Below are positions 1,811 to 48,100 of a DNA stretch of 64,000 bases, piece by piece; within the stretch, counting starts at the first letter, position 1; each line of letters opens with the position of its first letter. The translations under genes were made by a program, and so were the position numbers. The notes beneath the pieces were generated by a model. That model was given only the letters and a program-made list of their open reading frames with translations. It was not told the DNA's origin and ran no database searches. This stretch comes from Emiliania huxleyi CCMP1516. Taxonomy: Eukaryota. Location: positions 378,594 to 442,593 of the forward strand of contig NW_005201551.1 in NCBI RefSeq assembly GCF_000372725.1, read 5' to 3'.

Positions 1811-2010
1811 GGCGGCTTTTTAGGTTTCCCTGGGAACACACATTTCCTGGCCCGGGGGTAGCCAACTTGCGCGGGGATACTGAAGGGTTCCCGGGTAGTT
1901 AAGAAGCCCCTCCTTGCCCATGGTGACGTCGCCACAGTACCCAGCTCGCAGTGGGGATGCCATTAAAAAACCAAAGGCGGCAACCTAAGCTCACGTTGCG
2001 TCCCATTGGC

Positions 2011-5000
2011 ATGCTCATCGGTCTCCGCTTCGACGCCACGCTGCCCGTGCGGCACCGGCAGCAGCTTGCGGCGGTCCCTCCGCCTCTCCTCAACGAGCAA
2101 GCAACCTGCGCCGAACTCGCCGCCTGGATCGCCTCTGTCGCCGGCGTCGGCGTCGGCGGGTTGCCGGTCCTGTCCCTCGGTGGGCTGGTGGCGCCGCCGT
2201 CGCTTCCGGCGGCGCCCTTCCTCGCCCGCGCCGACGCGAGGGACCTCCTCATCGACGTCCATCCTCCGGACGACAACCTCTCGCTCCCAGCTGCGGCTGC
2301 CGCCTCCGCCGCCGCCGTCGCCGCCGTCGCCACCGCCGCCACCGCCGCCGGCGCCGGCGCCGAGGCTTCGCCGCAGGTGTCCGCGACGGCGGCGGCGTCG
2401 TCCAAGCGTGCGCGCCGCTCGTCGGCCGACGCCGCCGACGCGGGCGGAGCCTCAAAGGCCGCAGCCAAGGAGGAGCGGCGGAGGGCGCGCCGCCGGGAAA
2501 AGGAGGAGAAGGAGGCGAGGGAGGCGAGGGAGGCGAGGGAGGAGGCGAGGGGTCCGCCGCAGCGTCGCCGGCGTGTGGTGTGAAGGGGTCTCTTCACAGC
2601 TGCCGACGTGAACAGGCGAGGAGGACGCGGGCAGAGGACTGGAGGTGTGAACGGCGTCTCTTCACACCTGCAGCTGTGAACAGGCGCGCTCACTCGCTGC
2701 TGCGGCGGCGCCTCCTCCTCCTCCTCCTCCTCCTCCAACGCCGCTCGAGGCGCCGCCGCCGCTAGAGCGACCCTCGTTTGCAATTACGGCGAATCTCGGG
2801 GAAATCTCGGGGAAGTCTCGGGGAAATCTCGGGGAAGTCTCGGGGAAATCTCGGGGAAATCTCGGGGGAGATCTCGGCTGATTGCTGCGCAGGAGCGGCC
2901 TCCTCGCATCACGGTCCGATCTCAACAAATCTCCCGCCATGGCCGCCCTGCCGTCTTCACACCTCCACCGCTGTGAACAGGAGCAGCAATCTCCTCGAAT
3001 CTCCCCACACCCCCCGCCCCCGCCTTCCCACGCGCACCGCTGTGAACAGGGGCAGCCCTCGCCGCTCTTCTCCCACCCGCCCGCCCCCCCTCCCCCGCCC
3101 GACCCGTGGGCATCGGAGGGAGAANNNNNNNNNNNNNNNNNNNNNNNNNNNNNNNNNNNNNNNNNNNNNNNNNNNNNNNNNNNNNNNNNNNNNNNNNNNN
3201 NNNNNNNNNNNNNNNNNNNNNNNNNNNNNNNNNNNNNNNNNNNNNNNNNNNNNNNNNNNNNNNNNNNNNNNNNNNNNNNNNNNNNNNNNNNNNNNNNNNN
3301 NNNNNNNNNNNNNNNNNNNNNNNNNNNNNNNNNNNNNNNNNNNNNNNNNNNNNNNNNNNNNNNNNNNNNNNNNNNNNNNNNNNNNNNNNNNNNNNNNNNN
3401 NNNNNNNNNNNNNNNNNNNNNNNNNNNNNNNNNNNNNNNNNNNNNNNNNNNNNNNNNNNNNNNNNNNNNNNNNNNNNNNNNNNNNNNNNNNNNNNNNNNN
3501 NNNNNNNNNNNNNNNNNNNNNNNNNNNNNNNNNNNNNNNNNNNNNNNNNNNNNNNNNNNNNNNNNNNNNNNNNNNNNNNNNNNNNNNNNNNNNNNNNNNN
3601 NNNNNNNNNNNNNNNNNNNNNNNNNNNNNNNNNNNNNNNNNNNNNNNNNNNNNNNNNNNNNNNNNNNNNNNNNNNNNNNNNNNNNNNNNNNNNNNNNNNN
3701 NNNNNNNNNNNNNGCTGGGACGATCTCGGACGATCTCGGCTCTCCTCGGGCCACCTCGGCTCCTCGCATGCCCCTCTCGTGCCATCTCGGACAATCTCGG
3801 ACAATCTCGTCCCCTCTCCTGGCAGGTGGCCGAGCTGGCGGCGTCGTGGCAGCCGGCCCTAGACGCTGAAACAGTATTCATCACTGTACTCCACTGCAGT
3901 CCACTCCACTGCACTGTCTTCCTCTCCGTTGTCAGTACGCTGGAACAGGTATTCGTCACTGTTACTCCACTGCACTGCTGCTCCGCTGTCTTCCTCTCCG
4001 CTGTCTCCACGCGGTGCTTTAGAGTGCGCTGCACGACACCGTCCTCCCGCCCTGAGGTTGGTGCATTCATCACTCTCGTATTCCGCTGTGCTCCGCGCTG
4101 TAGTCACTGGACTCCTCTCCGTTGTCTGAGTGCGCTGCACGACACCGTCCTCCCGCCCTGAGGTTGGTGCATTCCTCCCTCTCGTATTCCGCTGTGCTCC
4201 GCGCTGTTCTCACTGGACTCCTCTCCGTTGTCTGAGTGCGCTGCACGACACCGTCCTCCCGCCCTGAGGTTGGTGCATTCCTCACTCTCGTATTCCGCTG
4301 TGCTCCGCGCTGCAGTCACTGGACTCCTCTCCGTTGTCTGAGTGCGCTGCACGACACCGTCCTCCCGCCCTGAGGTTGGTGCATTCATCACTCGCGTATT
4401 CCGCTGTGCTCCGCGCTGCAGTCACTGGACTCCTCTCCGTTGTCTGAGTGCGCTGCACGACACCGTAGGCAGCCGGCGCTACCATTACTTAATGAATGCC
4501 GGGAGAGTGGAGAGCTAGCGGAGTGGTAATTGTTAGGCAGCCGGTGCTACCATTGCTTAATGAATGCCGGGAGAATGGAGAGCTAGCGGAGTGGTAATTG
4601 TTAGGCAGCCGACGCTCGCATGGCGCACCGCGACGCTGCTACCCTCTCCGTCCGGGCTCGCCGCTGCCGAGATCTACCGAGATCCGATCTCGGCTCATCT
4701 CGGCTCATCTCGCCGCGATCTCGCGGTGTTAGGCTGTTTCTTGCGGGGGGCGAGGGGGCGGAGCCGACCGCCGTGGCGGAGGCAGCGAGATTGTGCCGAG
4801 ATTGTGCCGAGATTGTGCCGAGATGAGCGCCTGAGAGTGTACCGCGAGATGCTGAGAGATTTGGAGGGCGGTGTTGAGATCGCGCGAGGTCACCCGAGCT
4901 CACCCGAGACCTCCCGAGATTGCGCGAGATTGCGCGAGATTGCGCCAGGATAATTGCGTGAGATGACTCGAGATTGCGCGAGATGACTCGAGATGGCGCG

Positions 5001-7937: not shown

Positions 7938-9334
7938 TCACCAGAGGTCGATGCCGCGCTCCTCGCACACGGCCACCAGCTCAGGCTGCTCCAGGTTGTA
8001 GTTGTCCACCATGAGCGCCTGCACGCGAGGGGAGGTGCGATGAGCATTGGGCGAGAGAGGGGCGTGTGGCGAGGGGGGGCGTCTCGCGCCCACAAGCTCG
8101 GGGCGGCCCCCTCCTTGAGGGCGGCGGCCAGCGCCTTGCAGCCCTCGTCGCCAATCTGGTTGCCGTTGAGAGAGAGCTTCTCGAGCCGCGGCGCTGCCCC
8201 CTCCTTGCCGAGGGCGGCGGCCAGCGCCTTGCAGCCCTCGTCGCCAATCTTGTTGGGGGCGAGATCGAGCTCCTCGAGCCGCGGCGCTGCCCCGCTCGCG
8301 AGGACCTCCGCCAGCTGCGCCGCCTCCGCGTCGCCCCAGCCGAGGCCGAAGTAGTTCAGCACGGTCGCCTTGCCAAACTGCTCCTTGAAGGCGGCCTCGT
8401 ACAGCCGCTTCACCAGCGGCTTGTCGTCCTTGCCGTTGGTGAAGCTCTTCTTCTCCAGCTCCGCCGCGAACGCAGACGGCAGCAGCGGAGGGCGCCGGCC
8501 GCCGTCCTGGGTGCAGTCGTCGATGAGGCTGTCCCAGTCGTACTCCTTGCCGGCGCGCATCTTGCCGAGGTCGAGCGAGAGGGCGCCGGCCTTTGTCAGG
8601 CCAGCCCAGCACTGCTCCGTGTAGCACCAGCCGCGGTCAAAGTACTTGGCCACGTTGGTGCCCTCGGCCTGCTCCTCCGCCTTGTGGCCGTCCGGGAAGG
8701 AGGTCAGCCGCAGCACCCAAGTGTACTTGTGGGAGTAGAGCGTGCCGAGGCAGCCCAAACCCTCCTTGAAGAGCGCGTTCTGCTCCTCGGTGCGCAGGAC
8801 GCCGTTGGGGGGGTCGGGGTGCTGGTGCAGCGAGCCGAAGTCCCAAAAGATGCCGAGCCGCGTGATGTAGGGGTGACGGAGCAGGGCCTTCAGCGCCCTT
8901 GCGACGCGGGCGAGGTTGGCTCCGAGCGGGTCGGGGTGGTCCTTGGTCAGCCACGGGTAGGAGAGCGCGGCGACGGGAAGGTAGGCCTCCTTGCCGGTCG
9001 CCTCGACGAGGTCGGCGAAAGAGAGGAAGGCCTCTTTGGGCAGCGCCTGACGGTGGGTGAGGACGCCGCCCGCCTCGGCGTGGCTGATGACCCACTGCGC
9101 GTCGAGGACGGCGACGGCGCCGCTCGCGAGGACCGGCTCGAGGTCGCCACCGCCGTGCTCCCGCCACAGCTCCAGCTTCTCCTCGCTCACGCCGAGATCG
9201 GTGGCGGAGGGGAGGGCGTCGGCCGGCTGCGTTGGCGCGGCGGTGTCGGCGGGCGTCGGGGCGTCGAGTTCGACGGCGGGAGGGCCGAGCGGCTCCTCGG
9301 TCGGGGCCTCGACGCGGCTGGAGAAGCAGCCCAT
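7938..9334 (-). CDS. HET-like domain + ribonuclease-inhibitor-type LRR protein, copy 1 (exons 9334-8090, 8018-7938)
   Basis: Starts MGCFSS (N-myristoylation/palmitoylation-like). HET-type motifs ALSYPW, FWDFGSLHQ, LY..V and YFDRGWCYTE. Two LRRs (LEELDLAPNKIGDEGCKALA, LEKLSLNGNQIGDEG). GC-AG intron 8089-8019 before the terminal exon ..QPELVAVCEERGIDLW*. Confidence 0.85.
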
Positions 9335-9411
9335 CGCTTCGTCTGCCTGTGTAAGGCCGATCGACTTTGACAGCTAGGCGTCCGAGTTGGCGATCGGCTT
9401 TCCAAAGGACA

Positions 9412-15449: not shown

Positions 15450-15505
<56 letters not shown>

Positions 15506-15543
15506 GTGTGTGTGTGTGTGTGCGCGCGCGCGCGTGTGTGTGT

Positions 15544-15635
<92 letters not shown>

Positions 15636-18255: not shown

Positions 18256-21200
18256 ATGTCTTTGGGCGGTGGCGCCTACTTTGAGGAGCGGAACGCCAAG
18301 GAGGGCGTGCCGTACGATGCCGCTTCTCTCCCAGACATGAGCGCCGTGTTTGGGCCGTCGAAGGCGGAGAAGGAGGCGCAGGCGGAGGAGGAGAAGAAGA
18401 AGGAGGAGCCGCTGCCGAAGGCGCGCCGCCTCCCCGCAGACGCAGCCGCCGCGGCTCGCGCAGCACGCACGCACGCAGCACACGCACACCTTCTCTGTGC
18501 GGCAGCGGCAGCAGCGGCGCCGCCACAGGCGTCCGAAGCCGACACCGTTTGGGACAGGTGCCGCCGCTGCCTATGACGGTCGACGCGGCGTACGAGTTCC
18601 TCGGCATCGCGCCGCCCGACCGAGGCGAGAAACCCGAGACGCCTCCGAGACACTACCGAGACGCTTCCGAGACACTACCGAGACGCTTCCGAGACACTTC
18701 CGAGACACGTCACTGTCTTTCGCGTTCTCGGAGCCCGTGGGAGCCTGCCTGGAGCCTTCCTCCCGCAGGCAGCCTCGAGAAGCTGAAGAGACACTTCCGA
18801 GACACTTCCGAGACACTTCCTCCCGCAGGCAGCCTCGAGAAGCTGAAGATGCGGTTCCGCAAGATGAGCCTCAAGTGGCACCCCGACAAGAACATCCGCC
18901 GGCCAGAGGTGGAGGACTAGCCGAGAGATCGCCGAGAGATCGCCGAGAGATCGCCGAGAGATCGCCGAGAGATCACAGAGAGATCGCAGAGAGATCGCAG
19001 AGAGGTCGCAGGTCGCATAGGATTCGCAAAGAGAACACAGAACAACGCAAAGTGGTAACTTAAAACAACGCAAGGGGTCTCCGGTAGCTACACGTCTCAG
19101 AAGCTCGACCCCGCATCTCGGCTCGATCTCGCCCCCCCAGGCGGCGGCGGAGGTGTTCAAGGCTGTCAACGCGGCGTACCATACGCTGACGACAAACAAC
19201 TTCGACTACAAACGGCGGGCCTCGCCGAGCGCGCGCCGCGGCCCAAGCCGGCGACCAATTCGTGCGGACGAGTGATAACAGGTCCCCCCGTCCCGCCCCC
19301 ACTCACACCCACAACACGCGCACTGGGCGGGCTCTTTTCATGTGGGATGGAGAGAGCCCCGCCCCCCGCCGCCTTCTGTAGAGTGTACCTTGCCTCAACT
19401 CACCTCTCAGTCCTAGTCCTTCACGATTCCTCCGCACACCTCCCATCTCTCCCCTATCTCTCCGCACACCTCCCCATGTCTCGCCATCTCTCAGGTGGTC
19501 CGAGTCCTTCACGATCCCCCCGATGCAGTCGCTCGAGGACGTGCTGGTGATGGCGCTCAAGGGCGCCATTGCGAGATTGCACGAGATTGCACGAGAGTGC
19601 ACGAGATTGCACGAGAGTGCACGAGAGTGCACGAGATTGACACCACAGACCACGGCGTGGGCGGCGTCTCGTCACGGCTGGAGGTGTGAACAGGCGCCGA
19701 CCCTTACCAGGCCCCGTCGTGCTGCTCATTCGACGCGCAAGCTTCTTCAGCCACTGGTTAGCGATGCTACTGATTTGGTCAGGTCGAGATTCCATCTGGT
19801 GCATCTGCACACCCACGAGATTGCGCGAGATTGTGCCACGGCCTGACCAGGTCGAGATGCTGCTTAAAAAGCGGGGCGACTACCGGCCGCACCAAGACTT
19901 CGGCGTCAACCTCTCCATCCCGTGGAACGCGGGCAGCCGCGAGGACCAATTCATTTCCAGCGCCAGTGGGGTGGCGACAGGTCGAGTCGCTTCATGGCTG
20001 CAGCTGTGAACAGGACCCGTCCTACCACGTGCACACCGGCTCGGCGTACCACACGACGCGAGGGCCTCGAGGACCAAGGCACTGGGCGGTGGGGCGGTTT
20101 TCTCTTCACGGCTGGAGGTGTGAGCAGGCGCGGGCTCGAGGACAGAGGAAAGGCCGAGCTGGGATACGACGGCAGCGCTTCCGGTGACGCGGGTTGGGGG
20201 GGTGAGATGCCGAGGCGACGGCGACGACTTCACAGACGGCGGGCTTTGAACAGGCGACGCGTATGGAGGGCAGATTGTGAGGCACGTCGAGACTCAAGAT
20301 TTGCTCGACCAGTTTGGGGCGAAGGCGCAGGTGGGAGCAGACAGGGACGCGAGGCCTTGGGAGACGGTGGGAGGAGTGGGCTTTGGCGGGGGCGGCGGCG
20401 GCAGCGGCGGCGGCGGTGCGCCCAAGGCGGCGTATGCGAAGCCGAAGGGGCGGGCGGGGGGGCGGCGTCTCTTCACAGCTGCTGGCTGTGAACAGGCGTA
20501 CGCGAAGCCGAAGGGCCGGCCGGACTTGACTTCGCAGAGCGAGGGGGCGAGGGAGGCGGCGGAGGGGTTCAACGACCAGGCAGTCAAGGCGTTCAAGGCG
20601 AAGGACTGGCAGCGCTGCTACGACCTCTCCTCCGAGGCGATCCGACTCAACCCGCGCAAGACGGCATATCTCGGTCGATCTCGCATCCGCCTGACAGGTC
20701 GAGTCAATTGATAGCAAGCAGTTTTAATTAATCACGTTAATTAATTAATAGGCAACCGCGCCGCTGCGGCGCTGAAGATCAAGTCGCGCAAGATGCTGAA
20801 GCAGGCGGCGGAGGATTCGGTGGCGGAGATTCGCCGAGATTCGCCGAGAGACGACGCACGAATCGAACGATGAAGTGGACGCATCGCATCCATTGGCTTA
20901 TAGGTGCGGGCGTACGTACCGATGGAGCACCTCCACCCATGATTGGTTAACCAATTCGTTAATGGATGCGTTAATAAAACAGGTCCTCGCGTACGAGATG
21001 GACCACTTCCTCAATGACTGGTTAATTGAGTTGTTAATTAACTAATCACAGGTCCTCGCGTACGAGATGGACCACCTCTACGCTAAGGCGTACGTGCGGG
21101 CGGCGCAGGCGAGAGATCGCCGAGAGATCGCCGAGAGATCGCCGAGAGATCGCCGACGGTCTCTCCGACCCTTACGCAGAGGCGCGAGAGATCGCCGAGA

Positions 21201-23883: not shown

Positions 23884-26800
23884 TTAGCTAGAGGTGTGAC
23901 GGCAGTCTGACCAGCCACTGGGCACCAGCAGGCGGTACGGGCGGATGCAAGCGAGGCGGAGACACGGCCACACTGGAGGGATACACAGACACAGGCTAGA
24001 CACGCACGGCTCGTTGGTGTGAGACGGGCGCTGCTTTGACAGGCGCTGTTCACAAGCGCTGACTCCGATGCCCCTGGGCCAGATCTCGGACGGATCTCGG
24101 CTGCATCTCGGCTGCATCTCGGCTAGATCTCAGCTGAGCAACGCGGACTCGGAGAAGGCGCGCAAGGTGAGGAGCGAGCCTGAGATACGGGGAGATATGG
24201 GGAGGTATGGGGAGATATGGGGAGATGGCATGGTGAGGAGCAAGCCTGAGGCGAACAGACGCCAATCTGCTAGGCACACGAATGTGAGTCGAGGAAGCGC
24301 GCAGCTAAGGGGGGGAGCTAAGGGGAGGAAGGAACCGTCCCCGCCCGCAAACGCGAGGATCAGCGACGCCTGTCGAGCAATGAGAGCTCGAAGATCACAA
24401 CCGATGTGACGGGGCTCGCCTCGGCTGTCTCTCGGCGGCTTCGACGCCTCCTCCACCCGCGCCTCGCCGCGCGCGAGCTCCTGTTCACAGCGGCGTCAGG
24501 TGTGAACGGCGTCTCTTCAAGCAGGCGGGCGGTGGGGCAAGGAAGGGGGGGAAGGCAAGCTAGATCGGCTGATCCCTCGGCTGCCTCTCGGCTGCCTCTC
24601 GGCTGCCTCTCGGCTGCCTCTCGGCTGCCTCTCGGCTGTCTCTCGGCTGCCTCTCGGCTGCCTCTCGGCTGCCTCTCGGCTGCCTCGCGGCTGCCTCTCG
24701 GCTGCCTCTCGGCTGCCTCTCGGCTGCCTCTCGGCTGCCTCTCGGCTGCCTCGCGGCTGCCTCTCGGCTGCCTCTCGGCTGTCTCTAAGCTGTCTCTAAG
24801 CTGTCTCTAAGCTGTCTCTAAGCTGTCTCTAAGCTATCTCTAAGCTATCTCTAAGCTGTCTCTAAGCTGTCTCTAAGCTATCTCTAAGCTGTCTCTAAGC
24901 TGTCTCTAAGCTGTCTCTAAGCTGTCTCTAAGCTGTCTCTAAGCTGTCTCTAAGCTGTCTCTAAGCTGTCTCTAAGCTGTCTCTAAGCTGTCTCTAAGCT
25001 GTCTCTAAGCTGTCTCTAAGCTGTCTCTAAGCTGTCTCTAAGCTGTCTCTAAGCTGTCTCTAAGCTGTCTCTAAGCTGTCTCTAAGCTGTCTCTAAGCTG
25101 TCTCTAAGCTGTCTCTAAGCTGTCTCTAAGCTGTCTCTAAGCTGTCTCTAAGCTGTCTCTAAGCTGTCTCTAAGCTGTCTCTAAGCGGGCTCCTTGCATG
25201 TGCTCGGCCGCAGCTCCGGCGGCTTGTCGTACAGAAGCAAGTGCGGAGGCCGCAGCACCGCCCACCGCGCCTTTCCGTCGAGATGCGCCGAGCTCAGCCG
25301 AGATCTGGCCGAGATCTAGCCGAGATCAGACTCTGACCGACGTCAGGCGAGATCAGAGATCTGGCCGAGGTCTGGCCGAGGTCTGGCCGAGGTCTGACCG
25401 AGATTTGATCGAGATTCGGCCGAGATATGACCGAGATGCAGCCCCTTTCGCCTTCCATGTCGACCCCCGTCGCGCTGCCGACGCCATCCCCTCCCGCCGG
25501 TGCAGAGTGCCTAGTCATCAACGAGTTCGTTGTCATGCAATCTCGCGCAATCTCGTGCGATCCCCCCCCCTCTCGCAGCGCGCCCGTCCGCGCAGCGCCG
25601 AAGTACGCGAGCTCCTCGCTCACGCTCTCCAGGGTCCAGTCGTCGCCGCCTGTTCACAGCCAGAGGTGTGAACAAAACCAGCTCCCTCGCTCACGCTCTC
25701 CAAAGTCGCCGCCTGCATCCGCCGCCGCCGCCGCCGGGTCCGGTGCCGTCGCCTGTTCACCAGCTAGTCGATGAGTCATCAGCAGTAATCAGTCATTCTA
25801 GTTGATTAGCCGCCGCCGGGTCCGGTGGCGTCGCCTGTTAGCCGTGCGGTGATCTCGAGTGCGATCTCGAGTGCGATCTCGCGGTGATCTCGCGGTGATC
25901 TCGAGTCTGATCTCCAGCCCGATGTCGAGAGTAATCTCGCGGTGATCTCGCGATGATCTCGCGGTGATCTCGCCTTGGTCGGCCGGAGCTGCGGCGAGGA
26001 GGGCGCGGACCGCGCGCCTATGGATTACTGATTAGTTGGTCATCACCAGCAGCGACTAATTAATGAGGACAGCGCTGGCCCGCTCGCCTGTTCATCAGCT
26101 AGCTGATGAGTCATCAGCAGCAATCAGTTATTACGTACGGGCGCTGGCTGCGCGCCTCCGGCAGCGGGGTGTGCCGCCCCGCCAAGCCTCTCCGCCCTCC
26201 CCTCCCCTCCCCCCTCCCCTCCCGCCTCCCTCCTCCCCTCCCTCCTCCCCGGATCAACCCCGCCCGGATCCGACTCTCGCCTCGTCCCGATCCCGACCAC
26301 GGCGTCGTCAGACGCCGGGGAGGCGCCTGTTCACAGCTGGCCGAGGTGTGAACAGGGGACCCGCCGCCCCTCGCCGCCGTCATACGCAAGCGAGCCGCCT
26401 CGACTCGCCGCCCCCCTCGCCGCCGCCGCCGCCGCCGCTGCCGCCGCCACTGCCGCCGCCGCCGCCGCTGCTGCTGCTGCTGCTGCTGCCTCCTCCTCCG
26501 CTGCACTCACCGCCGACCAATGACTCACCGGCTGTAGGCGAAGCTGCACGCGGCAGCCCTCGCCCACCCCTCCCTCCGCGGCCAGCGCGACGTTGACACG
26601 CCAGCAGGGGGGAGGGGGGGGAGGGGGGGGAGGGGGAGGGGGCGGAGGAGGAGACGGCGTGGTCGGCCTCGAAGATGGCCTAAGTCTCGCGACAAGCCTC
26701 GGGTGGCGCCTCTGGCACTTCCTTCCGGGAGAGGGGAATGGAAGGGGAGGGAGGGGGGGGGGGGGGGGGTCTGCTGGCCTCGAGGCTTGCGCGCTCCCGC

Positions 26801-29800
26801 CGCTGCCTCCTCCTCCTCCTCCTCCTCCCCATGGCGTGCCGGGCCGGGACGCGCCTGCCGCCTCGGGTCACTCTCAGGTCAATCTCAGGTCAATCTCAGG
26901 TCAATCTCGGGTCAATCTCGGGTCAATCTCAGGTCAATCTCGGGTCAATCTCGGGTCAATCTCAGGTCAATCTCAGGTCAATCTCAGGTCAATCTCAGGT
27001 CAATCTCAGGTCAATCTCAGGTCAATCTCGGGTCAATCTGGGGTTAATCTCGAATGTATCCCGAGCGAAATCTCGGCTGCATCTCGGCTGCATCTCGGCT
27101 GCATCTCGCGCCCAGCAGCGGCGACGCGCGTCCGGACGAGGGCTGCGAGGGCGGCTGCGAGGCGGGGCGGGAGGCGGGGCTGGCGGGCCGGCTCCCCGAC
27201 CGCGCGCCTGTGGGGAGATGCGACCTCGGCGTCATCTCGGGTGAGCTCAGGTCTTCTCGGGTCATCTCGGGGTGAGCTCAGGTCTTCTCGGGTCATCTCG
27301 GGTGAGCTCGGGTGAGCTCGGGTGAGCTGGGGTGAGCTCGGGTGAGCTCGGGTCATCTCGGGTGAGCTGGGGTGAGCTCGGGAGATCGATTGGATCCAAT
27401 GCTGACCCGTCTCTGGCCATGGTTGGCCCTCCCGTGATTGATCCGTCCACAGCACGCCCGCGCTTTCTCACAGATCCCATAGTTCCACGCCCCGGTCCAT
27501 AGCTGATCCGCACAGAGCCCACCCTTCCACAGCTGCCCCGTCTCACACCCGTCCATGGCTGACTTGCTCTCATGCACATAGCTCTTCCCATAGCTGCGCT
27601 CATCCATAGCTTTGCCCGTCCATCTCTTTCGCCCTGCAGGCCCGAGCATGCCCACATGGCAGGCCCGTAGCATACCCGCCCGTACCAGCCATTGCTCGTC
27701 CATTGCTGCCCCGTCCATTGCTGACCGTCCATGGCTGACTTGCTCTCATCTGCACATGGCTGGTCCCATAGCTTTGCCCGTCCATCTCTGGTCCCACAGC
27801 TTTGCCCGTCCATCTCTTTCGCCCTGCCCAACCTCTGGTGAACTAGGATCATATCGCGACATCTCGGGCGATCTCGGCTCATCGCGCCGGTCGGCGGCGC
27901 GGCGGCGCGGGCGTCGCGAGAGGCGGCAGCGATGGCGTGCACAATGTCGCCGACCTGTTCACAGCGCAGCGCGTGTGAAGAGACGCCGTTCACAGCTGGC
28001 GGTGGCGTGGGCCACGCTTCCGCCCACCCACGCGCCCGCCTCCGCCGCCGACGGCGCCGCCATCTCGTGCGTGCGGCCGTCCCTCTCCCGGAGGAGGATG
28101 CGGGCGGAGCGGGAGCCGGCGGCGGGGGAGTGGAGAGGGTTCGAGACGGTGGCACCGCGCAAGTCCACCTTGGGGAACAAAGGGAGGGGGGGCGGTCGGC
28201 TGCAGGCGTGGGAGAGACGGCGGCAGACGGTAGCAAGTCCACCATATCTCCCCATCTCTCCCCATATCTCCACCTTGAACGCTGGCAAGGTGGCGAGGCG
28301 AGCCGCGTCGTCAAACACGCAGAGGCGGCCGCCTGTCCACAGCAGCAAGTGTGAAGAGGCGCATTCACAGCGGCGGGGGGAGGCGGGACGACGGAGTGGC
28401 GGCTGCCCTGCACCAGCCCAAGCACCGGAGACCACAGGCCCGTCACCTGTTCACAGCGCGTGTGTTCACAGCCCGTCGCCAGCCCGATGCTGTGAAGAGG
28501 CACGTCACCGGCGAACGGAGCGTCATCGGGCCGCCGACCTGCATCGGCGAGCTCGAGATCAGCCGAGAGGTGTCACTCATTAACGACGACTATCGCTCAT
28601 TCATCAGAGAGAGGGCCTGCAGCGGCGCGGTGAGCTCGAGAGGTGGCGTCTCCTCCGCCGTCGCCGCGTCGGCAGCGCGGCGCGGAGCAGTCGCCTCCGC
28701 AGCGGCGCCCTCCTCCGCCGCCTGCGAGTGGAACCATATCAACCATCGCCATCTCTACGCCTCTGCAGCCGCACCCCCTCCTCCTCCTCCGACGCCTGCT
28801 CCGCCGCTAGCACTCTGGCCGCGTGCGGCGCCAGCAGCTGCGACACCACGAACAGCGCGACGTCCTGTGACAAACCACCAGAAGAGTTCAGCACGACAGT
28901 TCATCACTGACTGGCCTAGCTGCAACGCGGGGAAGAGCGCGGCGGGCCTCGGAGAGAAAGTACGCCGAGTGCGCCGAGAGAGCGGCGAGGCTCTCCGAGA
29001 TCCAAGCCTGATTCATCAGGGCGTTAATTAGCCTCAACCACGAATTAATTAGCGGCGAAGCTCCCCGAGACCCAAGCCTAATCAAACAATTGTGTGCGGT
29101 TAGTGAATTGATGGATTAATGGATTAACTTGGCTGCCCGGGCTCCAAGCCTTGGAGCTGAAGAGCTGCATGTCCGTCTCGCCGCGCCGGTCGTTCTCCTA
29201 CAGTGGAGATGTGGGGAGATATGAGGGAGATATGAGGGAGATATGGGTGTGCCGGTACTTATCGCACGTGATGAATACACACCGATCAGAAGGCGGGAAT
29301 GCGGTGGTGCACTTTAGAGCGTCGTGCGAATATGAGGCCGACTGCCGTCGCCGTCTCTCCCTTCTCGACTGCCTGTGCTTGTGCGTGTTGGGCCCCTGGG
29401 TTGTGTCTTGGTGTGTCTTGGTGTGCATACGAGGAATGCGAGCGTTGAGTGGGCCTCTCGAGCGCCAGTTGGAATGCATGAATTCGTATTCCGCTTCTAG
29501 GGCCCTTCTCCGCCAGCCACGCGAGCGCCTCTGCACGCGTCGCCCCGATCGGCAACGAGCGCGCCGCGGCGGGAAGGAGCCTGTGTACACTCCCTAGACA
29601 CCTCCTAGACACTTCCTAGACACTTCACAGCCGCGGCGGGGAGGAGCCGAGAGCGAGCCGGCCGCGTCTGCTTCGTCACCTATAGGAGAGCTCGGACAAT
29701 CTCGGGGTCATCTCGGGGAATCTCCCCGGCCGTGTTCTGCTTCGTCGCCTGATTCGTTATCGTTCATTCCTTAGGGGAAGCGCGAGTGGGCCTGCCGCGT

Positions 29801-32800
29801 CCTGCTTCCGTCACCCAGTCTCGCGTGGCGCGGGAAGCGACGAGCACGCCGTCCCGCGTGGGCGGCGGCAGCAGCGGCTCCACCTTGCAGACGTGAAACA
29901 AGTCGTCACGGACTGAAGAGTGCTTGCTTGCGGCGGCGGCAACAGCGGCTCCGCCTTCCAGCTGACCGGGTCCGCGCGCGACCAAATGTTGAAGTACGCG
30001 TCGCAGCTCGGCCGCGGCACTCCTAATGAGTTAATTCACTAGTCAGAAGGCATGCATTATTAGTCGCAGCCTCGGCCGCGGCACTCCTTTTGGCCCGTCC
30101 GGCTCGCACCTATTTATTGAGACAGTGTGATTCCCTCTTTGTTGAATAACGCCCCCTGGCCCGTCCGGCTCGCGCCTCTTGTCGGCCGTCTCCGAGCTGC
30201 GCTCGTGCCTGCGTTAATGAATTGGGGCAGCTAACGTCTGTGAAGTGTCTAGGAAGTGTCTGTGCAGAGTCTAGGAAGTGTCTAGGAAGTGTCTAGGAGG
30301 TCTAGGAAGTGTCTAGGAAGTGTCTAGGAAGTGTCTAGGAAGTGTCTAGGAAGTGTCTAGGAAGTGTCTAGGAAGTGTCTAGGAAGTGTCTAGGAAGTGT
30401 CTAGGAAGTGCCTGCGAGAGACGAGGAAGAGAGCGGCGGGAGAGCCGCAGGCGAAGAAGCAGTCCACCGGGAAGGGGAGCACCTGTTCACAGCTAGAGGT
30501 GTGAAGAGACGCTGTTCACAGCTAGAAGCAGTCCACAAGGAAGGGGAGCACCTGTTCACAGCTAGAGGTGTGAAGAGACGCCGTTCACAGCTAGAAGCAG
30601 TCCACCGGGAAGGGGAGCACCTGTTATCAAATGATGACGCGTATCGATTGATTGGCTGAAAACGAAGAAGCAGTCAGGAAGCGGAGCACCTGTTTTTAAT
30701 TAATTATGACTAAGTAGTTGGCCGCAGGCAAGGAAGCAGTCGGGCAGCGGAGCACGGGGTAAGAGACGCCGCCGACCGCCCGCCCCGCCTTTGTGAGCAA
30801 GTCGCGGTGGTGATGGTGCCGAGAGATGGCCAACTTAATTCATGATGAATTAATCAACGGCCTTGGTGAGGAGGTCGTAGGTGATGATGGTGCCGAAGGA
30901 GTGGCCTAAGAAGGCGAGATCGTATCTCGGAGATTGTATCTCGCCCGGGAGATGATGGTGCCGAAGGAGTGGCCTACGGGACATGTCTCTGAAAGGTCGT
31001 GGACGTGTCCCGGACATGTAGGTGACGATGGTGCGAGTGGCCAAAGATCGAGACGCCGCCGCTGAAGCCGGGGTGCTCCGCGACGAATGCGCGGTACCTG
31101 CCCGGTGGTGAATGTGCTAATGAATGAATGAGCTGAGTAATCACCAACTTAATGGGTGCTCCGCTACATAGGCGCGGTACCTGCCATTGGTTCACTGATG
31201 ATGACCAGAGGCTCCGCCACAGGTGGGCTAATCTCGAGCAATCTCGGGTAATCTCGGGTGATCTCGAGCAATCTCGCTTCGAGGTGAGCTGGTCGGCGAC
31301 GGCGTCGATGATGCGCTGGCCGTGCGACGTGGTCAGGTAGTAGAACACGTCCATCACCTAATTAATTCTCAATTGTGCGTGTTAACTGTTAATTATGCGA
31401 CGTGGTCAGGTAGTAGAAGACGTCCATCACCTAATTAATTCTCAGTTGTGCGTGTTAGCTGTTAATTATGCGACGTGGTCGGGTAGTAGAACACGTCCAT
31501 CACCTAATTAATTCTCAATTGTGCGTGTTAACTGTTAATTATGCGACGTGGTCAGGTAGTAGAAGACGTCCATCACCTAATTAATTCTCAGTTGTGCGTG
31601 TTAACTGTTACTTATGCGACGTGGTCAGGTAGTAGAAGACGTCCATCACCTAATTAATTCTCAGTTGTGCGTGTTAACTGTTACTTATGCGACGTGGTCA
31701 GGTAGTAGAAGACGTCCATCACCTAATTAATTCTCAATTGTGCGTGTTAGCTGTTAATTATGCGACGTGGTCGGGTAGTAGAAGACGTCCATCACGTTCT
31801 CGCGCATGAAGGAACGCATGTCGCCGGCGCCCTCGGGCATGCACGCGCGCAGCAGCTCCTGCGAGATCACCCGAGATCACCCGAGATCATCCGAGATCAC
31901 CCGAGAGCACCCGAGATCACCCGAGATCGCCCGAGATCACCCGAGATCATCCGAGATCATCCGAGATCACCCGAGATCACCCGAGATCACCCGAGATCAC
32001 CCGAGAGCACCCGAGATCACCCGAGATCACCCGAGATCACCCGCGAGCATCCGAGATCACCCGAGATCACCCGAGATCACCCGAGATCACCCGAGAGACT
32101 ACTCACGCGCAGCGGCGCCTGGTCCTCCGCCTCCCCGCCTCCGCCTCCGCCGACCGCCACATCTCCGTCAAGCGCCGCTCCCTCCCTCGCCGCAGCGCCG
32201 CCGCCCCCGTTGCCCAAGCTGCCTAGCTCGTTCAAACGTTTAACTATGAGCACTCGTCCTCCACAACTAAACAGTCGCCCCCAGTGCCAAAGCTGCCGCT
32301 GCTTCCGCTGCCCGGCACTCCGCCGCCGCCGCCGCCGCCGCCGCCTCCAACACCGCCTCCTCCTCCTCCACCACCTCCTCCTCCTCCGCCTTCAGCCGCC
32401 TCCGCCTCCGCTGCCGCCGCCGGCGCGGCGTCGAACAGCTGCGGGTAGTGCAGCAGCGAGTGCCTATGAAGTAGCAATTAATAGTCAATGATGATCTCTT
32501 GGCACAGCGGAGGGTCAGTGCAGCAGCGAGTGCCTACGCGTTCACAGCTGCTGGTGTTAAGAGGCGGGCGGTGGGGTGCAAGCCGCGGGTCAGTGCAGCA
32601 GCGAGGCGCGCCATTCGATCGAATGCACCGTCACCTCCGCCTGATAGTACTCATTCTTAGGATTAGGACTGTTCTCGCCATTCGATCGAATGCACCGTCA
32701 CCTCCGCCTGATAACAACTAGCTCAGTCAGTCACTCGCCCGGCATCAGACCGCCCTCTGCCTCTCCTTCCGCCGCCTTGATCCCGCGCAGCCGTGTCCGC

Positions 32801-42178: not shown

Positions 42179-45100
42179 ATGTTGCAGTTCCGCCGGAGCT
42201 TGCGTCCCGCGGCCCTCCGCTCGGCGCTTCGCTCGGCGCCGCCGCTGGCTCCGCCGCTCGCCGGCCGTGCGAGCTGCCCGCTCGCCGGCCGCGCACGCTT
42301 CGCCTCCGCCGCGTCGAGCGCCGCCTCGCCGGGAGGCGGCCGGTTGGCTGCGGCCGGTCTCGCCGCCGCCGCCGCTGCTGCCGCGGGCTACGGGGCGTGG
42401 CAGCTGCAGCTGGGCGCGGGCGAGGACGAGGCTGCGCCGCTGAGCGGCGGCGGCGGCGGCGGCGGCGTCCCCGAGGCGTCGCTCACCCGCCGCCAGCTCG
42501 AGGCGATCTACGCGTTTGAGAAGCGGATCGGGCAGGGCGGGTTCGGCGACGTGTGGCTGGCGCGCGACGCGAAGAGCGGGCGGCAGGTCGCGGTAAAGCT
42601 CATCTCGCTCGAGAAGCTCCCTCGCGCCATGGTCGAGGTCGAGGTCGAGGCGATGCGCCGCTGCGGTAGAGCGCAACACCTCTGCAGGCCAGCCTCTGCT
42701 GCAGCCTTCTGTCTCCACGGCGCTTGTATTCACACGGCGCGTAGGCTCTCACCCGTACATCATCGAGCTGCTGGGCGTGTACTGGGTCCGGCCCGAGGGG
42801 CGTGCGGCCGACAGCGGCCCTGTCGAGGCGGCGATTGTGATGGAGCTGGCCGGCGGCGGAGGCTTTCCTTAGCCGAGATCACGCGAGATCACGCGAGATC
42901 ATCCGAGATTGTGATGGAGGCTCGCCGGCGGCGGAGGCGACCCGAGATGACCCGAGAGATACGCGAGATCATTCGAGATCATTCGAGATCACCCGAGATT
43001 GCGCGAGGGGCCCCTCTCGGAACCTTCCTGTGGCAGGCCTGTTCGAGCGCCTGGTTGCGGAGGGCGCGTACACGGAGCAGATCGCATCCAAGATCATCAA
43101 GCAGGTGCGAGATGCGGCCGAGAGATGGGGCACGCCTCGGCTGTCACACCCTGCCGGCTGCTCTTCACACCTCGTCTGTCCATGTTGCAGACTCCGCTAA
43201 CAAGAGAGTCCCAATGTACTTCTTTTCCCAGGTCGCCCTGTCGATCTACCACCTCCACTCGCGCGGCATCCCGCTACCGCCGACCTCAGCAAGGCGGTGG
43301 CAATCAGCTAATTAGTTATTAATTGCATGATTCAGGCATTCCGCGCCGCCGGTCTCAGCCGGAGAAGGCGGTGGTGCATCAACTCATTCATGACTCCTTG
43401 CTGGGTCCAGGCATCCTGCACCGCGACCTCAAGCCCGAGAACGTCGTCTTCGAGTGTGAAGCGCGGCAGCTTGCGGCCGAGCTGTGAACCGGAGGGCCGG
43501 AGGTGTGAACAGAGGCGCTGTGAACAGGAGCGCGACTCTGCGATCAAGCTGATCGATTTCGGTGCCGCCGCCACGCTGGAAGGGGGTGATAGAATGCGCG
43601 GCTCTTCACAGCTGCAGCTGTGAACAGGCACCGCCGTGACGCTGGACGAGGCGGGGGAGAAGGTGCAGGGCGGAGGGCGGATAGGCACCTCGTCTTTGCT
43701 GGGTCATGGTTAGTTGTTCCTGCACTACTCGGTGATCCGTTAAGCGGAATAGGCACTTGGTCGTACTGGGCGCCCGAGCAGCTGGCGCCGCCCTTCCTCT
43801 GCACACCTCTTCCCGCTGTGAACGTGGACTCTTCACGGCATGCGTGGTGTGAACAGGCGCAGCAGCCGTACGGCTTTGAGGTCGAGTTGTGGCCGTGCCG
43901 GAACTTTCTCGGAATTTTCTCGGAACCGGGTGCGACCCTTTTCGGAATTTTCCTTAGGTCGACCTCTGGTCGCTCGGCGTGCTCCTCTACATCCTGCTGG
44001 TTGGCTTCCACCCCTTCGACCCGGAGGGGGAGGCGAGATTAGCTCGAGATTGGCCCGAGATCGGCCGAGAGTCCGTTGCTTGTGAACGCGCAGACATGAA
44101 GTCGCGTGTGTGTGTCGTAATCCAGCTCACTCGTCGTTTTGCACCCGGTGCTCTCCGAGGCCGGCCAGCACGTAAGCACCAAGCGATGCGGTCGGATAGG
44201 CGAACGAGCAGCAGATCCTCGCAAACATGAAGGCGCGCACGCCTCCTGCCTCCGACACGCCCAATCCGTTGAATGGCTTCTTACTTAGTTAGTTTGATCG
44301 ACATCAGGCGCACCGCCTCTGCCTCGACGCGCCGGAGTGGGGCACCGTCTCCGGGCAGGCAAAGGGGCTCCCGCTAGCTAATTTGACTACCGAACTTCGT
44401 TACGTGGGGCACGGTCTCGGGGCTCGCGCTAGTTAGTTTGAACTACCGAGCTGAGCTGCCCCCCCCCCCCCCCCACCCTCGGGGCAGGCAAAGGGGCTCG
44501 TCGTCTCTTTGCTCGAGCCCGACCCGGAGCAGCGGCTGACGGCGGCGCAGCTCATTTCGCACCCGTGGGTGCTCGGGCAGGACGTGCCGGGCAGGCCGAT
44601 GCCGGCGACGCAGGAGCGGCTGCGCCACTTCACGCAGGCCCGCAACGCGTTCTACGGCTCGCTGCTCATGGGCCTTCTCGTGCACCAGCTGTCGACCAGT
44701 GCGGACGCAGAGGGGCTCGGCGGGCTGCAAGTGGGCGGGAGTACGACCGATGCAGAGGGCTGGATGACAAGGATGGCATCGATATCAGGCGGGCTGCAAG
44801 TGGACGTGGTTCGCGAGGGGTGGCGCGCGCTCGACCGCGACGGGAAGGGCCACATCGACGCGCAAGACCTGTGGCGCGTCTGCCTCGACATGGGGTACAA
44901 GGTGCCGCCAGTGGACAGCGGGCCAGGTGGTGTTGCGGTGCTCCCGCTTGGGTTGATGCACGCACTGCGCACTGGTCATCAGGTGTCGCCAAAGGACGTG
45001 GACCAGATGGTCTGCGTGCTCGCTCCGACGGGGCTAGAAAGAAGATGCACCAGCGCTCCTGGTGTGAACGGCGTCTCTTCACACCTGCAGCTGTGAACAG

Positions 45101-48100
45101 GCTAGAGAAGAAGGTGCACCAGCGCTACTCCTCCCGCGGCGACGGGAAGCCGGCGCCGGAGGCGGGAGGAGGAGGAGGCAGCAGCGGCGGCGGAGCGGAG
45201 GGCGGCGGCGGCGGCGGCGGCGGCGGCGGCCCGGCTCGCATCTCGTACGAGCGCTACTGCAAGACGCTGGCTGGCTCCTTCTCGCGCACCTTTGAGAAGG
45301 GGGCGTACGTGTTCAAGGAGGGGGGAGGGGGCGGTGGACGCGACCGCCGCCCTCGTGTCAGTTAGCTGAGCCATAGTTGATCATGGACAGGAGGGGGACC
45401 CGGTGGACGCCTTCTTCGTGATCACGAGCGGCGCCTGCGAGGTGCGTGGCCCGGGCAGCACGGAGATGTTGATCTCGGCTGTATCTCGGCTGCATCTCGG
45501 CTGCATCTCGGCTGCATCTCGGCCGCATCTCGGCTGCATCTCGCCCGCATCTCGGCTGCATCTCGGGTAGGTGCGGGTCGCGGGCCCGGACGGCAAGGAG
45601 CGGCTGATTGCGACGCTCGGCGCGGGCGACTTCTTCGGCGAGACTTCTTAAACTAGTACTAAATTATTAATTATTCATTCAGGCGCGGGCGACTTCTTCG
45701 GCGAGATTTCTTAAATTAGTACTAAATTATTAATTATTCATTCAGGCGCGGGCGACTTCTTCGGCGAGACCGGCTTGCTGGAGGGGAGGAGCGTGCGGGC
45801 GGCGTCGGTGTTTGCGACGGCGCCGCTCGAGGTGCTGGCGATTCACTGATTAGCAATTAATTAATGACGCACTAATTGGTCACCAATTGCCGCTCGAGGT
45901 GCTGGCGATTCACTGATTAGCAATTAATTAATGACGCACTAATTGGTCACCAATTGCCGCTCGAGGTGCTGGCGATCGACCGAAAGGTCTTCAACGAGGC
46001 GCGCGCACACCTCTTAATTATTAACTCGTTGAAGAAGGAAGGAGTCGATCCATTTGTTGTTCACAGGTTGCGAGCGTGCACAACTCGTCCGCTCTCTCCA
46101 CCTCGATGCGCGAGCGCGCCGAGGCGAGGCAGCGGGCGAGGCTGCTAATTAATTAATAGGCAACTAATCAATAGGTGCCTAATTAATGAATAGGCGAGGC
46201 AGCGGGCGAGGCTGCTCAAGGTGTTTGAGAACATGTCGGTCTCCCTCTCGCAGCGCCGCCGCTTCGGCAAGGGGGCGGTGGTCTACCAGCAGGGGAGTCC
46301 GGCTCAGCTCTTCACACCGCCTAGCTGTGAACAGGCAAGGGGGCGGTGGTTTACCAGCAGGGGAGTCTGGCTCAGCTCTTCACACCGCCTAGCTGTGAAC
46401 AGGCAAGGGGGCGGTGGTTTACCAGCAGGGGAGTCCGGCTCAGCTCTTCACACCGCCTAGCTGTGAACAGGCAAGGGGGCGGTGGTTTACCAGCAGGGGA
46501 GTCCGGCTCAGCTCTTCTACATCGTCAACGAGGGCGAGCTCGAGATGTCGGTGAATAAGCCGGACGGAGGCTCTTCACACCGCCTGGCTGTGAACAGGCG
46601 AGCTGGAGATGTCGGTGAATAAGCCGGACGGAGGCTCTTCACACCGCCTGGCTGTGAACAGGCGAGCTCGAGATGTCGGTGAATAAGCCGGACGGAGGCT
46701 CTTCACACCGCCTGGCTGTGAACAGGCGAGCTCGAGATGTCGGTGAATAAGCCGGACGGAGGCTCTTCACACCGCCTGGCTGTGAACAGGCGAGCTCGAG
46801 ATGTCGGTGAATAAGCCGGACGGAGGCTCTTCACACCGCCTGGCTGTGAACAGGCGAGCTCGAGATGTCGGTGAATAAGCCGGACGGAGGCTCTTCACAC
46901 CGCCTGGCTGTGAACAGGCGAGCTCGAGATGTCGGTGAATAAGCCGGACGGAGGCTCTTCACACCGCCTGGCTGTGAACAGGCGAGCTCGAGATGTCGGT
47001 GAATAAGCCGGACGGAGGCTCTTCACACCGCCTGGCTGTGAACAGGCGAGCTCGAGATGTCGGTGAATAAGCCGGACGGAGGCTCGGTGCGTGTAAAGAC
47101 GCTGCGGCCGGGGGACCATTTGGGGTACGATGCGATCTTCTCGGAGGTGCTACGACTCGGCGATGACTTGGATGAGTTGGTTAGCTAACTCGTCACCTGA
47201 ATTGAACAATCGCATCAGGTGCACGACACGACGGTGACTTGCCTGAGCGAGGTCGAGCTGACTGAGGTCACAAAGGAGGTGCTCGGCGTTAGTTAATTAA
47301 TTAATAGGTGACTACTTTTAATTAGGTCGAGCTGACCGAGGTCACAAAGGAGGTGCTCGGCGACGCCTTCTCGAACGACCGCTACTTCTCGACCATCTTC
47401 GAGGCGAGGCAGCACTTGCGCGAGGGGCAGCTGTGAACAGCGTCTCTTCACACCTGTTGCTGTGAACAGGCGAGGCAGCAATTGCGCGAGGGGCAGCTGG
47501 CGGCGGCGTCGCAGGGGGAGGCACAGATTCTGCCGATGATGGCGCGCGCGGCGGCGGCGGGAGACGGCGTCGACTACAGCCAGTACGAGTCGCTCATCCA
47601 GGAGATTGCGCCAGATTGTTGGTTGATTACTAGGCGTCGACTACAGCCAGTACGAGTCGCTCATCCAGGAGATTGCGCCAGATTGTTGGTTGATTACTAG
47701 GCGTCGACTACAGCCAGTACGAGTCGCTCATCAAGGAGATTGCGCCAGATTGTTGGTTGATTACTAGGCGTCGACTACAGCCAGTACGAGTCGCTCATCC
47801 AGGAGATTGCGCCAGATTGTTGGTTGATTACTAGGCGTCGACTACAGCCAGTACGAGTCGCTCATCAAGGAGATTGCGCCAGATTGTTGGTTGATTACTA
47901 GGCGTCGACTACAGCCAGTACGAGTCGCTCATCAAGGAGATTGCGCCAGATTGTTGGTTGATTACTAGGCGTCGACTACAGCCAGTACGAGTCGCTCATC
48001 AAGGAGATTGCGCCAGATTGTTGGTTGATTACTAGGCGTCGACTACAGCCAGTACGAGTCGCTCATCAAGGAGATTGCGCCAGATTGTTGGTTGATTACT

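What the first reader, a model, noticed from the sequence alone, without database searches (positions are those of the whole stretch)
2644..2683. A 40-nt hairpin cassette that supplies the 3' splice site in unrelated genes and follows the transcribed strand (introner-like)
Seen: GGTGTGAACGGCGTCTCTTCACACCTGCAGCTGTGAACAG is identical at 2644-2683 (coilin-like gene) and 45061-45100 (kinase). Variants end introns at ~20465-20494, 43600-43627, 47432-47469, 48373-48412 and 48664-48692. In the minus-strand DDHD gene it appears as the reverse complement (27955-27995, 30483-30592). It folds as GTGTGAA/TTCACAC and ends in the acceptor CAG. The switch from exon copy to cassette often occurs at microhomology (CAGCTCTTC|TAC in the exon vs CAGCTCTTC|ACAC in the intron; GGAGGCTC|GG vs GGAGGCTC|TTCACAC). 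Inference: a tiny mobile or templated insert that creates introns, or a lineage-specific splicing signal replacing the polypyrimidine tract.
Basis: partly seen in the sequence, partly recalled or inferred. Interest (0 to 1): 0.75.

Follow-up and report, generated by a model that had tools for sequence, protein, structure and literature searches.

The report
Introns built from duplicated exon starts
In the coccolithophore alga Emiliania huxleyi many introns are about 70 bases long and consist of a copy of the first ~28 bases of the next exon followed by a shared ~40-base end piece, which likely means new introns are made by copying the back half of an existing intron during DNA repair, and would explain why this alga has mostly unusual GC splice donors.

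Summary
The 40-mer is real and follows the transcribed strand (33 of 33 exact 3' motifs). RNA contigs splice at four cassette AGs in 4 of 4 runs, but the focal AG at 2683 was not shown. The window is E. huxleyi CCMP1516. The cassette is only the 3' half of the unit. In 88 of 108 metagenome copies, and in 25 of 35 introns of the kinase gene whatever their 3' filler, the intron begins with a copy of the downstream exon (median 28 nt in the metagenome set) and is about 70 nt long. The GC/GT donor is that exon copy; donor shares (GC 49, GT 27, GA 5 of 88) resemble the species' published GC-donor excess. Neighbouring introns share rare cassette variants and a few copies are inverted, which favours DNA-level templated insertion with a long target duplication (0.5) over RNA-based or transposase routes. 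Intron gain itself is untested: no genome or empty alleles were available. E. huxleyi introners are listed in published tables; I found no description of this anatomy. The scan's index held no look-alike. New variant of a known kind; interest 0.78.

The parts
2644..2683 (+). Focal 40-nt cassette: TGTGAA arm, TTCACA arm (candidate branch A 20 nt from the end), second TGTGAA arm, acceptor AG
   Evidence: acceptor use not shown by RNA; branch point inferred
2616..2683 (+). Focal 68-nt unit: 28-nt GC-starting leader plus cassette. The leader is not a clear copy of the present downstream exon, so the focal site is atypical
   Evidence: allele L081 has a 1-nt deletion in the leader, consistent with non-coding
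2545..2615 (+). Preceding ~70-nt unit with a degenerate cassette; likely spliced with the focal unit as one two-unit intron (donor position uncertain)
   Evidence: inference
2914..3049 (+). Two-unit intron (67 + 69 nt), both units ending CTGTGAACAG; RNA joins to AG 3049
   Evidence: (1 of 4 runs)
45033..45100 (+). 68-nt kinase intron: 28-nt copy of the next exon plus the identical 40-nt cassette (45061-45100)
   Evidence: junction inferred
43562..43627 (+). 66-nt GT-AG cassette intron with a diverged exon copy
   Evidence: RNA joint 4 of 4 runs
43785..43856 (+). 72-nt GC-AG cassette intron, exon copy only 4 nt exact
   Evidence: RNA joint 4 of 4 runs
46267..46470 (+). Array of three 68-nt units (exon copy plus short cassette)
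46534..47045 (+). Array of eight 64-nt units; loop variant differs by one base from the neighbouring array
47404..47469 (+). 66-nt cassette intron; the filler is about 1.3 copies of a 29-nt unit
   Evidence: (pieces start at 47468)
48345..48412 (+). 68-nt GC-AG cassette intron, 24-nt exact exon copy
   Evidence: (consecutive pieces of one contig)
48630..48692 (+). 63-nt GT-AG cassette intron, 15-nt exact exon copy
   Evidence: RNA joint 4 of 4 runs
49132..49273 (+). Two-unit 142-nt intron, both units ending CTGTGAACAG
   Evidence: RNA joint 4 of 4 runs
48156..48225 (+). 70-nt intron of the same anatomy with an AT-rich filler; 34-nt exact exon copy
   Evidence: RNA joint 4 of 4 runs
48790..48859 (+). 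70-nt intron of the same anatomy with a GACACTTCC-repeat filler
   Evidence: RNA joint 4 of 4 runs
20430..20495 (+). Cassette unit with a 28-nt exon copy in the DnaJ-domain gene
   Evidence: Pfam DnaJ partial match; splicing not tested
27955..27995 (-). Cassette on the minus strand in the DDHD-domain gene
   Evidence: splicing not tested
30483..30620 (-). Two 69-nt units (exon copy plus cassette) in the DDHD-domain gene
   Evidence: splicing not tested
24481..24525 (-). Intron end carrying the cassette core in inverted orientation, closed by a sense CTGTGAACAG

Best explanation
The 40-mer is the shared 3' half of a ~70-nt intron whose 5' half is a copy of the start of the next exon, and such introns are likely born in one DNA-level templated insertion that duplicates ~28 nt of exon and pastes in the back half of an existing intron. 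Shown: the anatomy [GY + exon copy][cassette ending AG] then GY exon; spread over unrelated genes; sense bias; splicing at the cassette AG at several sites; no donor consensus beyond G|GY. Inferred steps: (1) a staggered break or stalled synthesis leaves the sense strand extended about 30 nt into the exon; (2) its 3' end switches to another intron's DNA, often a neighbour, and copies 20-40 nt up to the AG; (3) it rejoins at the start of the duplicated stretch; (4) events survive in exons only when the duplicate starts with GC, GT or GA and the paste supplies a branch point and AG about 70 nt later, so splicing restores the mRNA exactly; (5) the flanking direct repeats then let whole units expand to arrays of 2 to 8. 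The enzyme is unidentified; polymerase-theta-type end joining is a recalled analogy.
For: Exon copy above the 99th percentile of 2123 mismatched pairs at 88 of 108 metagenome sites (median score 19.5 vs 6.0), 11 of 107 in a control window further upstream; projected length 66-72 nt in 64 of 88. In the kinase, 25 of 35 introns carry the downstream-exon copy and 0 of 35 an upstream-exon copy at the 3' end; removing them gives a 1084-aa ORF with 675 identities in 1082 columns to homolog P0123. Cassette-tail decay and copy decay correlate (rho -0.30, p 0.002, n 98), as expected if both arose together. Near-identical loop variants are enriched within loci (21 of 113 pairs vs 7.3% between, permutation p 0.001). 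Five inverted cores in 4 loci; in L058 and L125 the inverted copy carries a neighbour's loop variant, which sense-only reverse splicing would not give. L075 holds two duplication-flanked cassette pieces in other registers with no acceptor.
Against: Microhomology is weak in aggregate at the entry and at the exit (p 0.04-0.09, 17 pairs). Mean loop distance within loci is not significantly lower (p 0.087), and clustering could reflect gene age, since loci were picked by an exact core. A blind DNA process should also mark intergenic DNA, yet duplication-plus-filler units number 58 in gene spans and 3 outside, so coupling to transcription or strictly local templates must be assumed. 20 of 108 sites lack a significant copy, including the focal site; some may be assembly chimeras (L013, L068), and L022 has a cassette end with no copy. 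No empty allele was found among the allele pairs examined. Metagenome sites were de-duplicated only on exact context, so they are not fully independent.
Confidence: 0.5

Rival explanations
1. RNA-coupled insertion. An excised intron's 3' end (AG-OH) is joined to the non-template DNA strand at G|GY, by a first reverse-splicing step in an R-loop or by target-primed reverse transcription. The upstream exon end is then extended about 30 nt by strand displacement and joined to the trimmed intron tail.
For: Fixed 3' junction, variable 5' junction, duplication only of the downstream exon; 139 sense vs 5 antisense cores; confinement to genes. Reverse splicing into R-loop DNA is proposed in PMC10996645 (passages).
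Against: Inverted copies and permuted pieces without AG exist. [quoted passage not shown] No reverse transcriptase was tied to the element here.
Confidence: 0.2
2. Old introns overwritten. A break in an existing intron is repaired on spliced mRNA or cDNA, so exon 1 is extended into exon 2 for about 30 nt and rejoins the old 3' half. Cassettes spread separately by conversion between introns. Intron positions would be ancestral.
For: Explains without selection why the copy starts exactly at the junction and is always of the downstream exon (0 of 35 upstream copies). It applies to all filler types. L022 has a cassette with no copy.
Against: Copy and cassette ages correlate. Some units duplicate sequence on both sides of the junction (55690-55778, 61140-61237). 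The kinase has 35 introns in 3255 coding bases, which suggests gain.
Confidence: 0.15
3. A classical non-autonomous DNA transposon (tiny MITE-like introner) with terminal inverted repeats CT(G/C)TTCACA...TGTGAACAG, mobilised by a transposase and derived from the 178/356-bp repeat or a Novosib-type element.
For: A 29-nt near-palindrome folds well (z -2.5). The cassette aligns over about 36 nt with a 178/356-bp non-coding repeat found in 7 loci. A published 66-nt E. huxleyi introner family hits Novosib-1_EmiHux (PMC12130899 supplement rows); whether it is this family is unknown.
Against: Duplications run 12-35 nt or more and vary, against 3-9 bp for known DNA-transposon introners (PMC9860276). 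The 5' end is not fixed. A symmetric element should insert both ways. Unrelated fillers show the same anatomy.
Confidence: 0.1
4. A lineage-specific 3' splice signal kept by selection in place of a polypyrimidine tract, with no copying.
For: Fixed distance of TTCAC and AG (16 nt from core to AG at 78 of 108 sites); strict sense bias.
Against: Identity over 40 nt in unrelated genes, an accompanying exon duplication, and 25 of 35 kinase introns without the GTGAACAG end. The motif may well act as a signal, but that does not explain its origin.
Confidence: 0.05

Closest known systems
[quoted passage not shown] 2022, PMC9860276)
   Same: Repeated intron sequence in unrelated genes; acceptor carried, donor taken from the duplication; mRNA restored exactly.
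   Different: Duplication median 28 nt and variable, against 3-9 bp. Only the 3' half is shared between copies. No fixed 5' end, no mobiliser found, several unrelated fillers.
E. huxleyi introner families in published tables (PMC9860276 Tables 5-6: 653 copies, 5 families of mean length 70, 70, 37, 37, 37, TSD '?' or 'N'; PMC12130899 file 8: 3 families of 6, 5 and 45 copies)
   Same: Same species; two families have mean length 70; one is typed 'co-opt 5' carry 3'' with a note of 10-bp terminal direct repeats.
   Different: No long exon duplication is described in the rows seen. The 2022 pipeline needs similarity at both intron ends, which a locus-specific 5' half fails.
Intron gain by staggered double-strand-break repair in Daphnia (PMC4202315; reviewed in PMC3443670)
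   Same: Direct repeat of the adjacent exon at the far end of the new intron, with inserted filler.
   Different: Daphnia repeats are 4-12 bp. Here repeats are about 28 nt, fillers recur as families copied among introns, and the unit length is near 70 nt.
Intron gain by tandem genomic duplication of AGGT-bearing exon sequence (PMC3443670)
   Same: The donor comes from duplicated exon sequence.
   Different: The acceptor here comes from a pasted filler; only 22 of 66 sites have AG before the donor.
E. huxleyi GC-AG donor excess (Feldmesser et al. 2014, PMC4028052)
   Same: Published hand-curated donors GC 56%, GT 40%, GA 4%; here GC 49, GT 27, GA 5 of 88 and GC 20, GT 13, GA 2 of 35.
   Different: That paper ascribes the shift to genomic GC content (passages); the passages seen do not mention exon copies or cassettes.

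Membership tests
Introner | Similar intron sequence at many non-paralogous sites | tested here: met
   125 loci, 121 distinct flanked sites, unrelated flanks
Introner | Similarity reaching both intron ends | tested here: not met
   The 5' ~30 nt is locus-specific exon copy; criterion from PMC9860276
Introner | Spliced out at its own boundaries | tested here: met
   Four cassette AGs joined in 4 of 4 runs; focal AG not shown
Introner | Creates introns at new positions (empty alleles or orthologues) | tested here: inconclusive
   No genome held; allele pairs among the loci all carried the unit; homologs gave protein only
DNA-transposon introner (MITE type) | Short fixed target duplication, 3-9 bp | tested here: not met
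DNA-transposon introner (MITE type) | Terminal inverted repeats at both element ends | tested here: inconclusive
   The last 26-29 nt are a near-palindrome, but the element's 5' end varies
DNA-transposon introner (MITE type) | Autonomous partner with matching ends | not testable with these tools
   No whole genome; the 178/356-bp repeat was not traced to a coding element
Staggered-break repair intron gain | Direct repeat of the adjacent exon at the opposite intron end, above background | tested here: met
   88 of 108 and 25 of 35 against mismatched-pair controls
Staggered-break repair intron gain | Microhomology-guided templated filler | tested here: inconclusive
   Single strong cases (L003, L055, L073) but weak aggregates
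Tandem genomic duplication intron gain | Both splice sites come from a duplicated AG|GY | tested here: not met
   AG precedes the donor at 22 of 66 sites; the acceptor is in the filler. A few non-cassette units do fit
Major-spliceosome intron | GY...AG ends | tested here: met
   Kinase donors GC 20, GT 13, GA 2, all AG acceptors
Major-spliceosome intron | Branch point pairing with U2; donor consensus at +3 to +6 | tested here: inconclusive
   TTCAC fits the recalled yUnAy pattern at -20; no donor consensus beyond G|GY; E. huxleyi snRNAs not available

The most novel reading that the evidence does not exclude
E. huxleyi runs a transposase-free, self-propagating intron factory. Half-introns are copied from neighbour to neighbour with a ~30-nt target duplication. 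Most of its introns and its GC-donor majority come from this one process, and its spliceosome picks donors by a ~70-nt ruler from the acceptor rather than by U1 consensus, removing multi-unit introns step by step. Screens that need end-to-end intron similarity would miss it, here and perhaps in other lineages.
Probability: 0.3. Interest if true: 0.92.

Novelty: new variant of a known kind. Interest (0 to 1): 0.78.

Why it matters
How introns are gained in bulk is a long-standing open question, and most new introns have no traceable source. Here each young intron appears to record its own birth: a dateable exon duplicate and a traceable donor cassette. The anatomy gives a concrete, testable cause for the published GC-donor excess of a globally important alga. 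It implies a spliceosome that accepts donors with no consensus beyond G|GY. It also shows a class of repeated introns that current introner screens would miss by design. In practice, the exon copies make junction placement ambiguous and mislead gene models: the public model of this kinase is 490 aa against 1084 aa here.

Tried and rejected
No whole genome is held, so genome-wide counts were not possible. The core had 0 hits in viral contigs and 0 in prokaryote genomes. Rfam on 7 repeat-bearing loci gave one weak match below its gathering score, so no small-RNA template was found; snRNA complementarity was not tested. No homolog or Pfam family was found for the focal gene's first exon, so 'coilin-like' is unsupported. 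Laying RNA on 1811-3124 did not show a joint at 2683; this is no evidence against it, as the flank was skipped as repeat. Whole-unit transposition with a foreign exon piece (L013 sharing L009's unit, L068 sharing L078's) was set aside as probable assembly chimerism at the shared cassette. A telomerase-like iterative template was considered because the cassette is about 1.3 copies of a 29-nt unit, but the 5' arm did not co-vary clearly with a site's own loop (mean match 1.51 vs 1.29). General microhomology at entry and exit was weak. Exceptional hairpin stability of the 40-mer was rejected. No 3n length preference (30, 24, 34 by remainder). For some searches, 22 loci were dropped as redundant, window-matching or chimeric; one search also dropped the repeat loci and loci with the core on both strands. 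Ten literature searches found no description of this anatomy. The 2013 genome paper (recalled) did not appear in them and was not read; it or its supplements may bear on novelty.

Full report
Observation. The 40-mer is exact at 2644-2683 and 45061-45100, with a 3-mismatch copy at 30552-30591 on the minus strand; none is expected by chance. Its last ten bases occur 56 times with up to one mismatch, against 3.25 expected. All 33 exact copies are on the sense strand of four genes and none is intergenic (gene spans were set by me). Strand support: kinase, DnaJ and DDHD exons give partial Pfam matches below cut-off; the focal gene has an open frame from 2011 and a GT-AG RNA joint at 2914-3049. 'Coilin-like' is unsupported.

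Organism. A kinase exon is 100% identical to EMIHUDRAFT_458993 of Emiliania huxleyi CCMP1516, and the window's LRR gene belongs to an E. huxleyi family. No whole genome was held.

Splicing. Contigs of four runs from four studies (one on record as RNA, three guessed) join at cassette AGs 43627, 43856, 48692 and 49273 in 4 of 4 runs. Consecutive pieces of one contig bridge to 48412 (15 joints shown, 56 hidden). AG 45100 was not among the joints shown; retaining that intron gives an in-frame stop, and removing it keeps the full ORF. At the focal site no joint at 2683 was shown because the flank was skipped as repeat; AG 3049 was used in 1 of 4 runs. In those runs 12 to 27 contigs each match the cassette with foreign flanks, so it is dispersed.

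The real unit. Of 145 core matches, 8 lacked flank and 121 were distinct. Of these, 108 have YAG then G 15-21 nt after the core (78 at 16 nt; G was part of my criterion). Of the other 13, six lie in a longer repeat, two have AG followed by T or C, three have a nearer or non-YAG acceptor-like site and two have none. At 88 of 108 sites the DNA before the cassette is a copy of the start of the downstream exon, above the 99th percentile of 2123 mismatched pairs; a control window further upstream passed at 11 of 107. The copy ends at a median 28 nt. The projected intron is 56-81 nt (64 of 88 within 66-72). It starts GC in 49, GT in 27, GA in 5 and otherwise in 7. Among 66 well-aligned sites, intron and exon have the same base make-up at +3 to +6, so there is no donor consensus beyond G|GY.

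It is a gene-wide architecture. Spliced alignment to two full-length homologs, corrected with RNA joints and by hand at a few junctions, gives the kinase 35 introns and a 1084-aa ORF with 675 identities in 1082 columns to P0123. Twenty-five of 35 introns start with a significant copy of the next exon: 8 of 10 cassette introns and 17 of 25 with other fillers (AT-rich, GAGATC-, GACACTTCC- and CTCGGCTGCAT-type repeats). None of 35 ends with a significant copy of the previous exon. Twenty-one are 63-81 nt and many others are multiples, up to 8 x 64 and 8 x 67. A scan for duplication-plus-filler units found 58 in gene spans and 3 outside, 38 of the 58 with a period of 60-79 nt (it includes some microsatellite and LRR repeats).

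The focal site is atypical. It is the second of two adjacent units (about 2545-2615 and 2616-2683). Its 28-nt leader does not match the present downstream exon. An allele (L081) has a 1-nt deletion in that leader while its downstream exon differences keep frame, so both units are likely one intron (inference; donor uncertain).

Mechanism. Copy decay and cassette decay correlate (rho -0.30, p 0.002, n 98), favouring one event. Near-identical loop variants are enriched within loci (21 of 113 pairs vs 7.3%, p 0.001), though mean distance is not (p 0.087). The core is inverted in 5 of 144 anchor matches, and in L058 and L125 the inverted copy carries a neighbour's variant. L075 holds duplication-flanked cassette pieces with no acceptor. 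These point to DNA template switching. Against this: entry and exit microhomology are weak in aggregate, the confinement to genes needs an extra assumption, and no empty allele was seen. I put DNA-level templated insertion at 0.5, RNA-coupled insertion at 0.2, overwriting of old introns at 0.15, a transposase-driven element at 0.1 and a pure splicing signal at 0.05. The branch A at -20 is inferred from the recalled yUnAy pattern. The 40-mer's hairpin is unremarkable (z -0.50); the 3' hairpin is better (z -2.2 to -2.5).

Possible source. Seven loci (plus one redundant copy) hold the core inside a non-coding repeat with 178- and 356-bp periods. It aligns with the cassette through the second GTGAAC but lacks the AG and has no credible Rfam match. 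Which came first is unknown.

Literature. PMC9860276 (passages and supplement rows; the file was cut when stored): earlier known introner duplications are 3-9 bp; E. huxleyi has 653 introners in 5 families, two of mean length 70 with TSD '?'; the method needs similarity at both intron ends. PMC12130899 (passages, supplement rows, part 1 of file 8): three small E. huxleyi families, one hitting Novosib-1_EmiHux and one 'co-opt 5' carry 3''. PMC4028052 (passages): donors GC 56%, GT 40%, GA 4%, ascribed to GC content. PMC4202315 (passages): Daphnia repeats of 4-12 bp. PMC3443670, PMC10996645, PMC8469720 and PMC11347168 (passages) give the other mechanisms and note many non-canonical introns in this species. 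Ten searches found no account of the exon-copy anatomy; the 2013 genome paper was not read. The scan's own index had no look-alike sequence and only loosely related notes.

Verdict. The feature is real. It works like an introner that carries its acceptor and takes its donor from a target duplication, but it fails the both-ends and short-duplication tests. It is best filed as a new variant between introners and break-repair intron gain. Interest 0.78.

Noticed in passing
window 55690-55778 (-): A 64-nt-period unit: 25-nt duplication with a filler of telomere-type (CCCTAA)n repeats; L116 has a similar filler.
   Followed up: partly
window 61140-61237 (+): 26-nt duplication around a filler of four 12-nt CTCTTCACACCT-like repeats in the nucleoside transporter gene; a 72-nt GA-AG register exists with the AG inside the duplication.
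   Followed up: partly
window 46267-46470, 46534-47045, 47567-48102 (+); about 31350-31790 (-): Tandem arrays of whole exon-copy-plus-filler units (3 x 68, 8 x 64, 8 x 67; about six further units in the DDHD gene). Each junction is AG followed by G, a possible stepwise-splicing site; assembly artefact not excluded.
   Followed up: partly
L005, L029, L047, L053, L057, L067, L119: Dispersed non-coding repeat with 178/356-bp periods that contains the cassette core several times.
   Followed up: partly
window 10254-10744 and 11725-12215: 491-nt near-perfect inverted repeat with 980 nt between the arms.
   Followed up: no
window 15324-15567 and 22776-23013; L001, L065: Dispersed ~250-nt repeat: (AC)n followed by a conserved stretch ending in ACCTT repeats; one copy ends an intron, one is intergenic.
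   Followed up: no
window about 7940-9340 (-), 37900-39300 (+), 53580-54810 (+): Three paralogous LRR-family genes, 91-94% identical, with one long exon and no cassette, in contrast to the intron-dense genes around them.
   Followed up: partly
window 12851-13755, 40312-41118, 49864-50767: Three copies of an ~800-900-nt dispersed repeat, 92-94% identical, in intergenic DNA.
   Followed up: no
window about 24770-25190 (-): Long array of an 11-nt GAGACAGCTTA unit inside an intron of the DDHD-domain gene.
   Followed up: no
window 42179-49704 (+): Protein kinase followed by cyclic-nucleotide-binding domains (per the homologs' Pfam entries), 1084 aa over 36 exons; the public model covers 490 aa.
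   Followed up: yes
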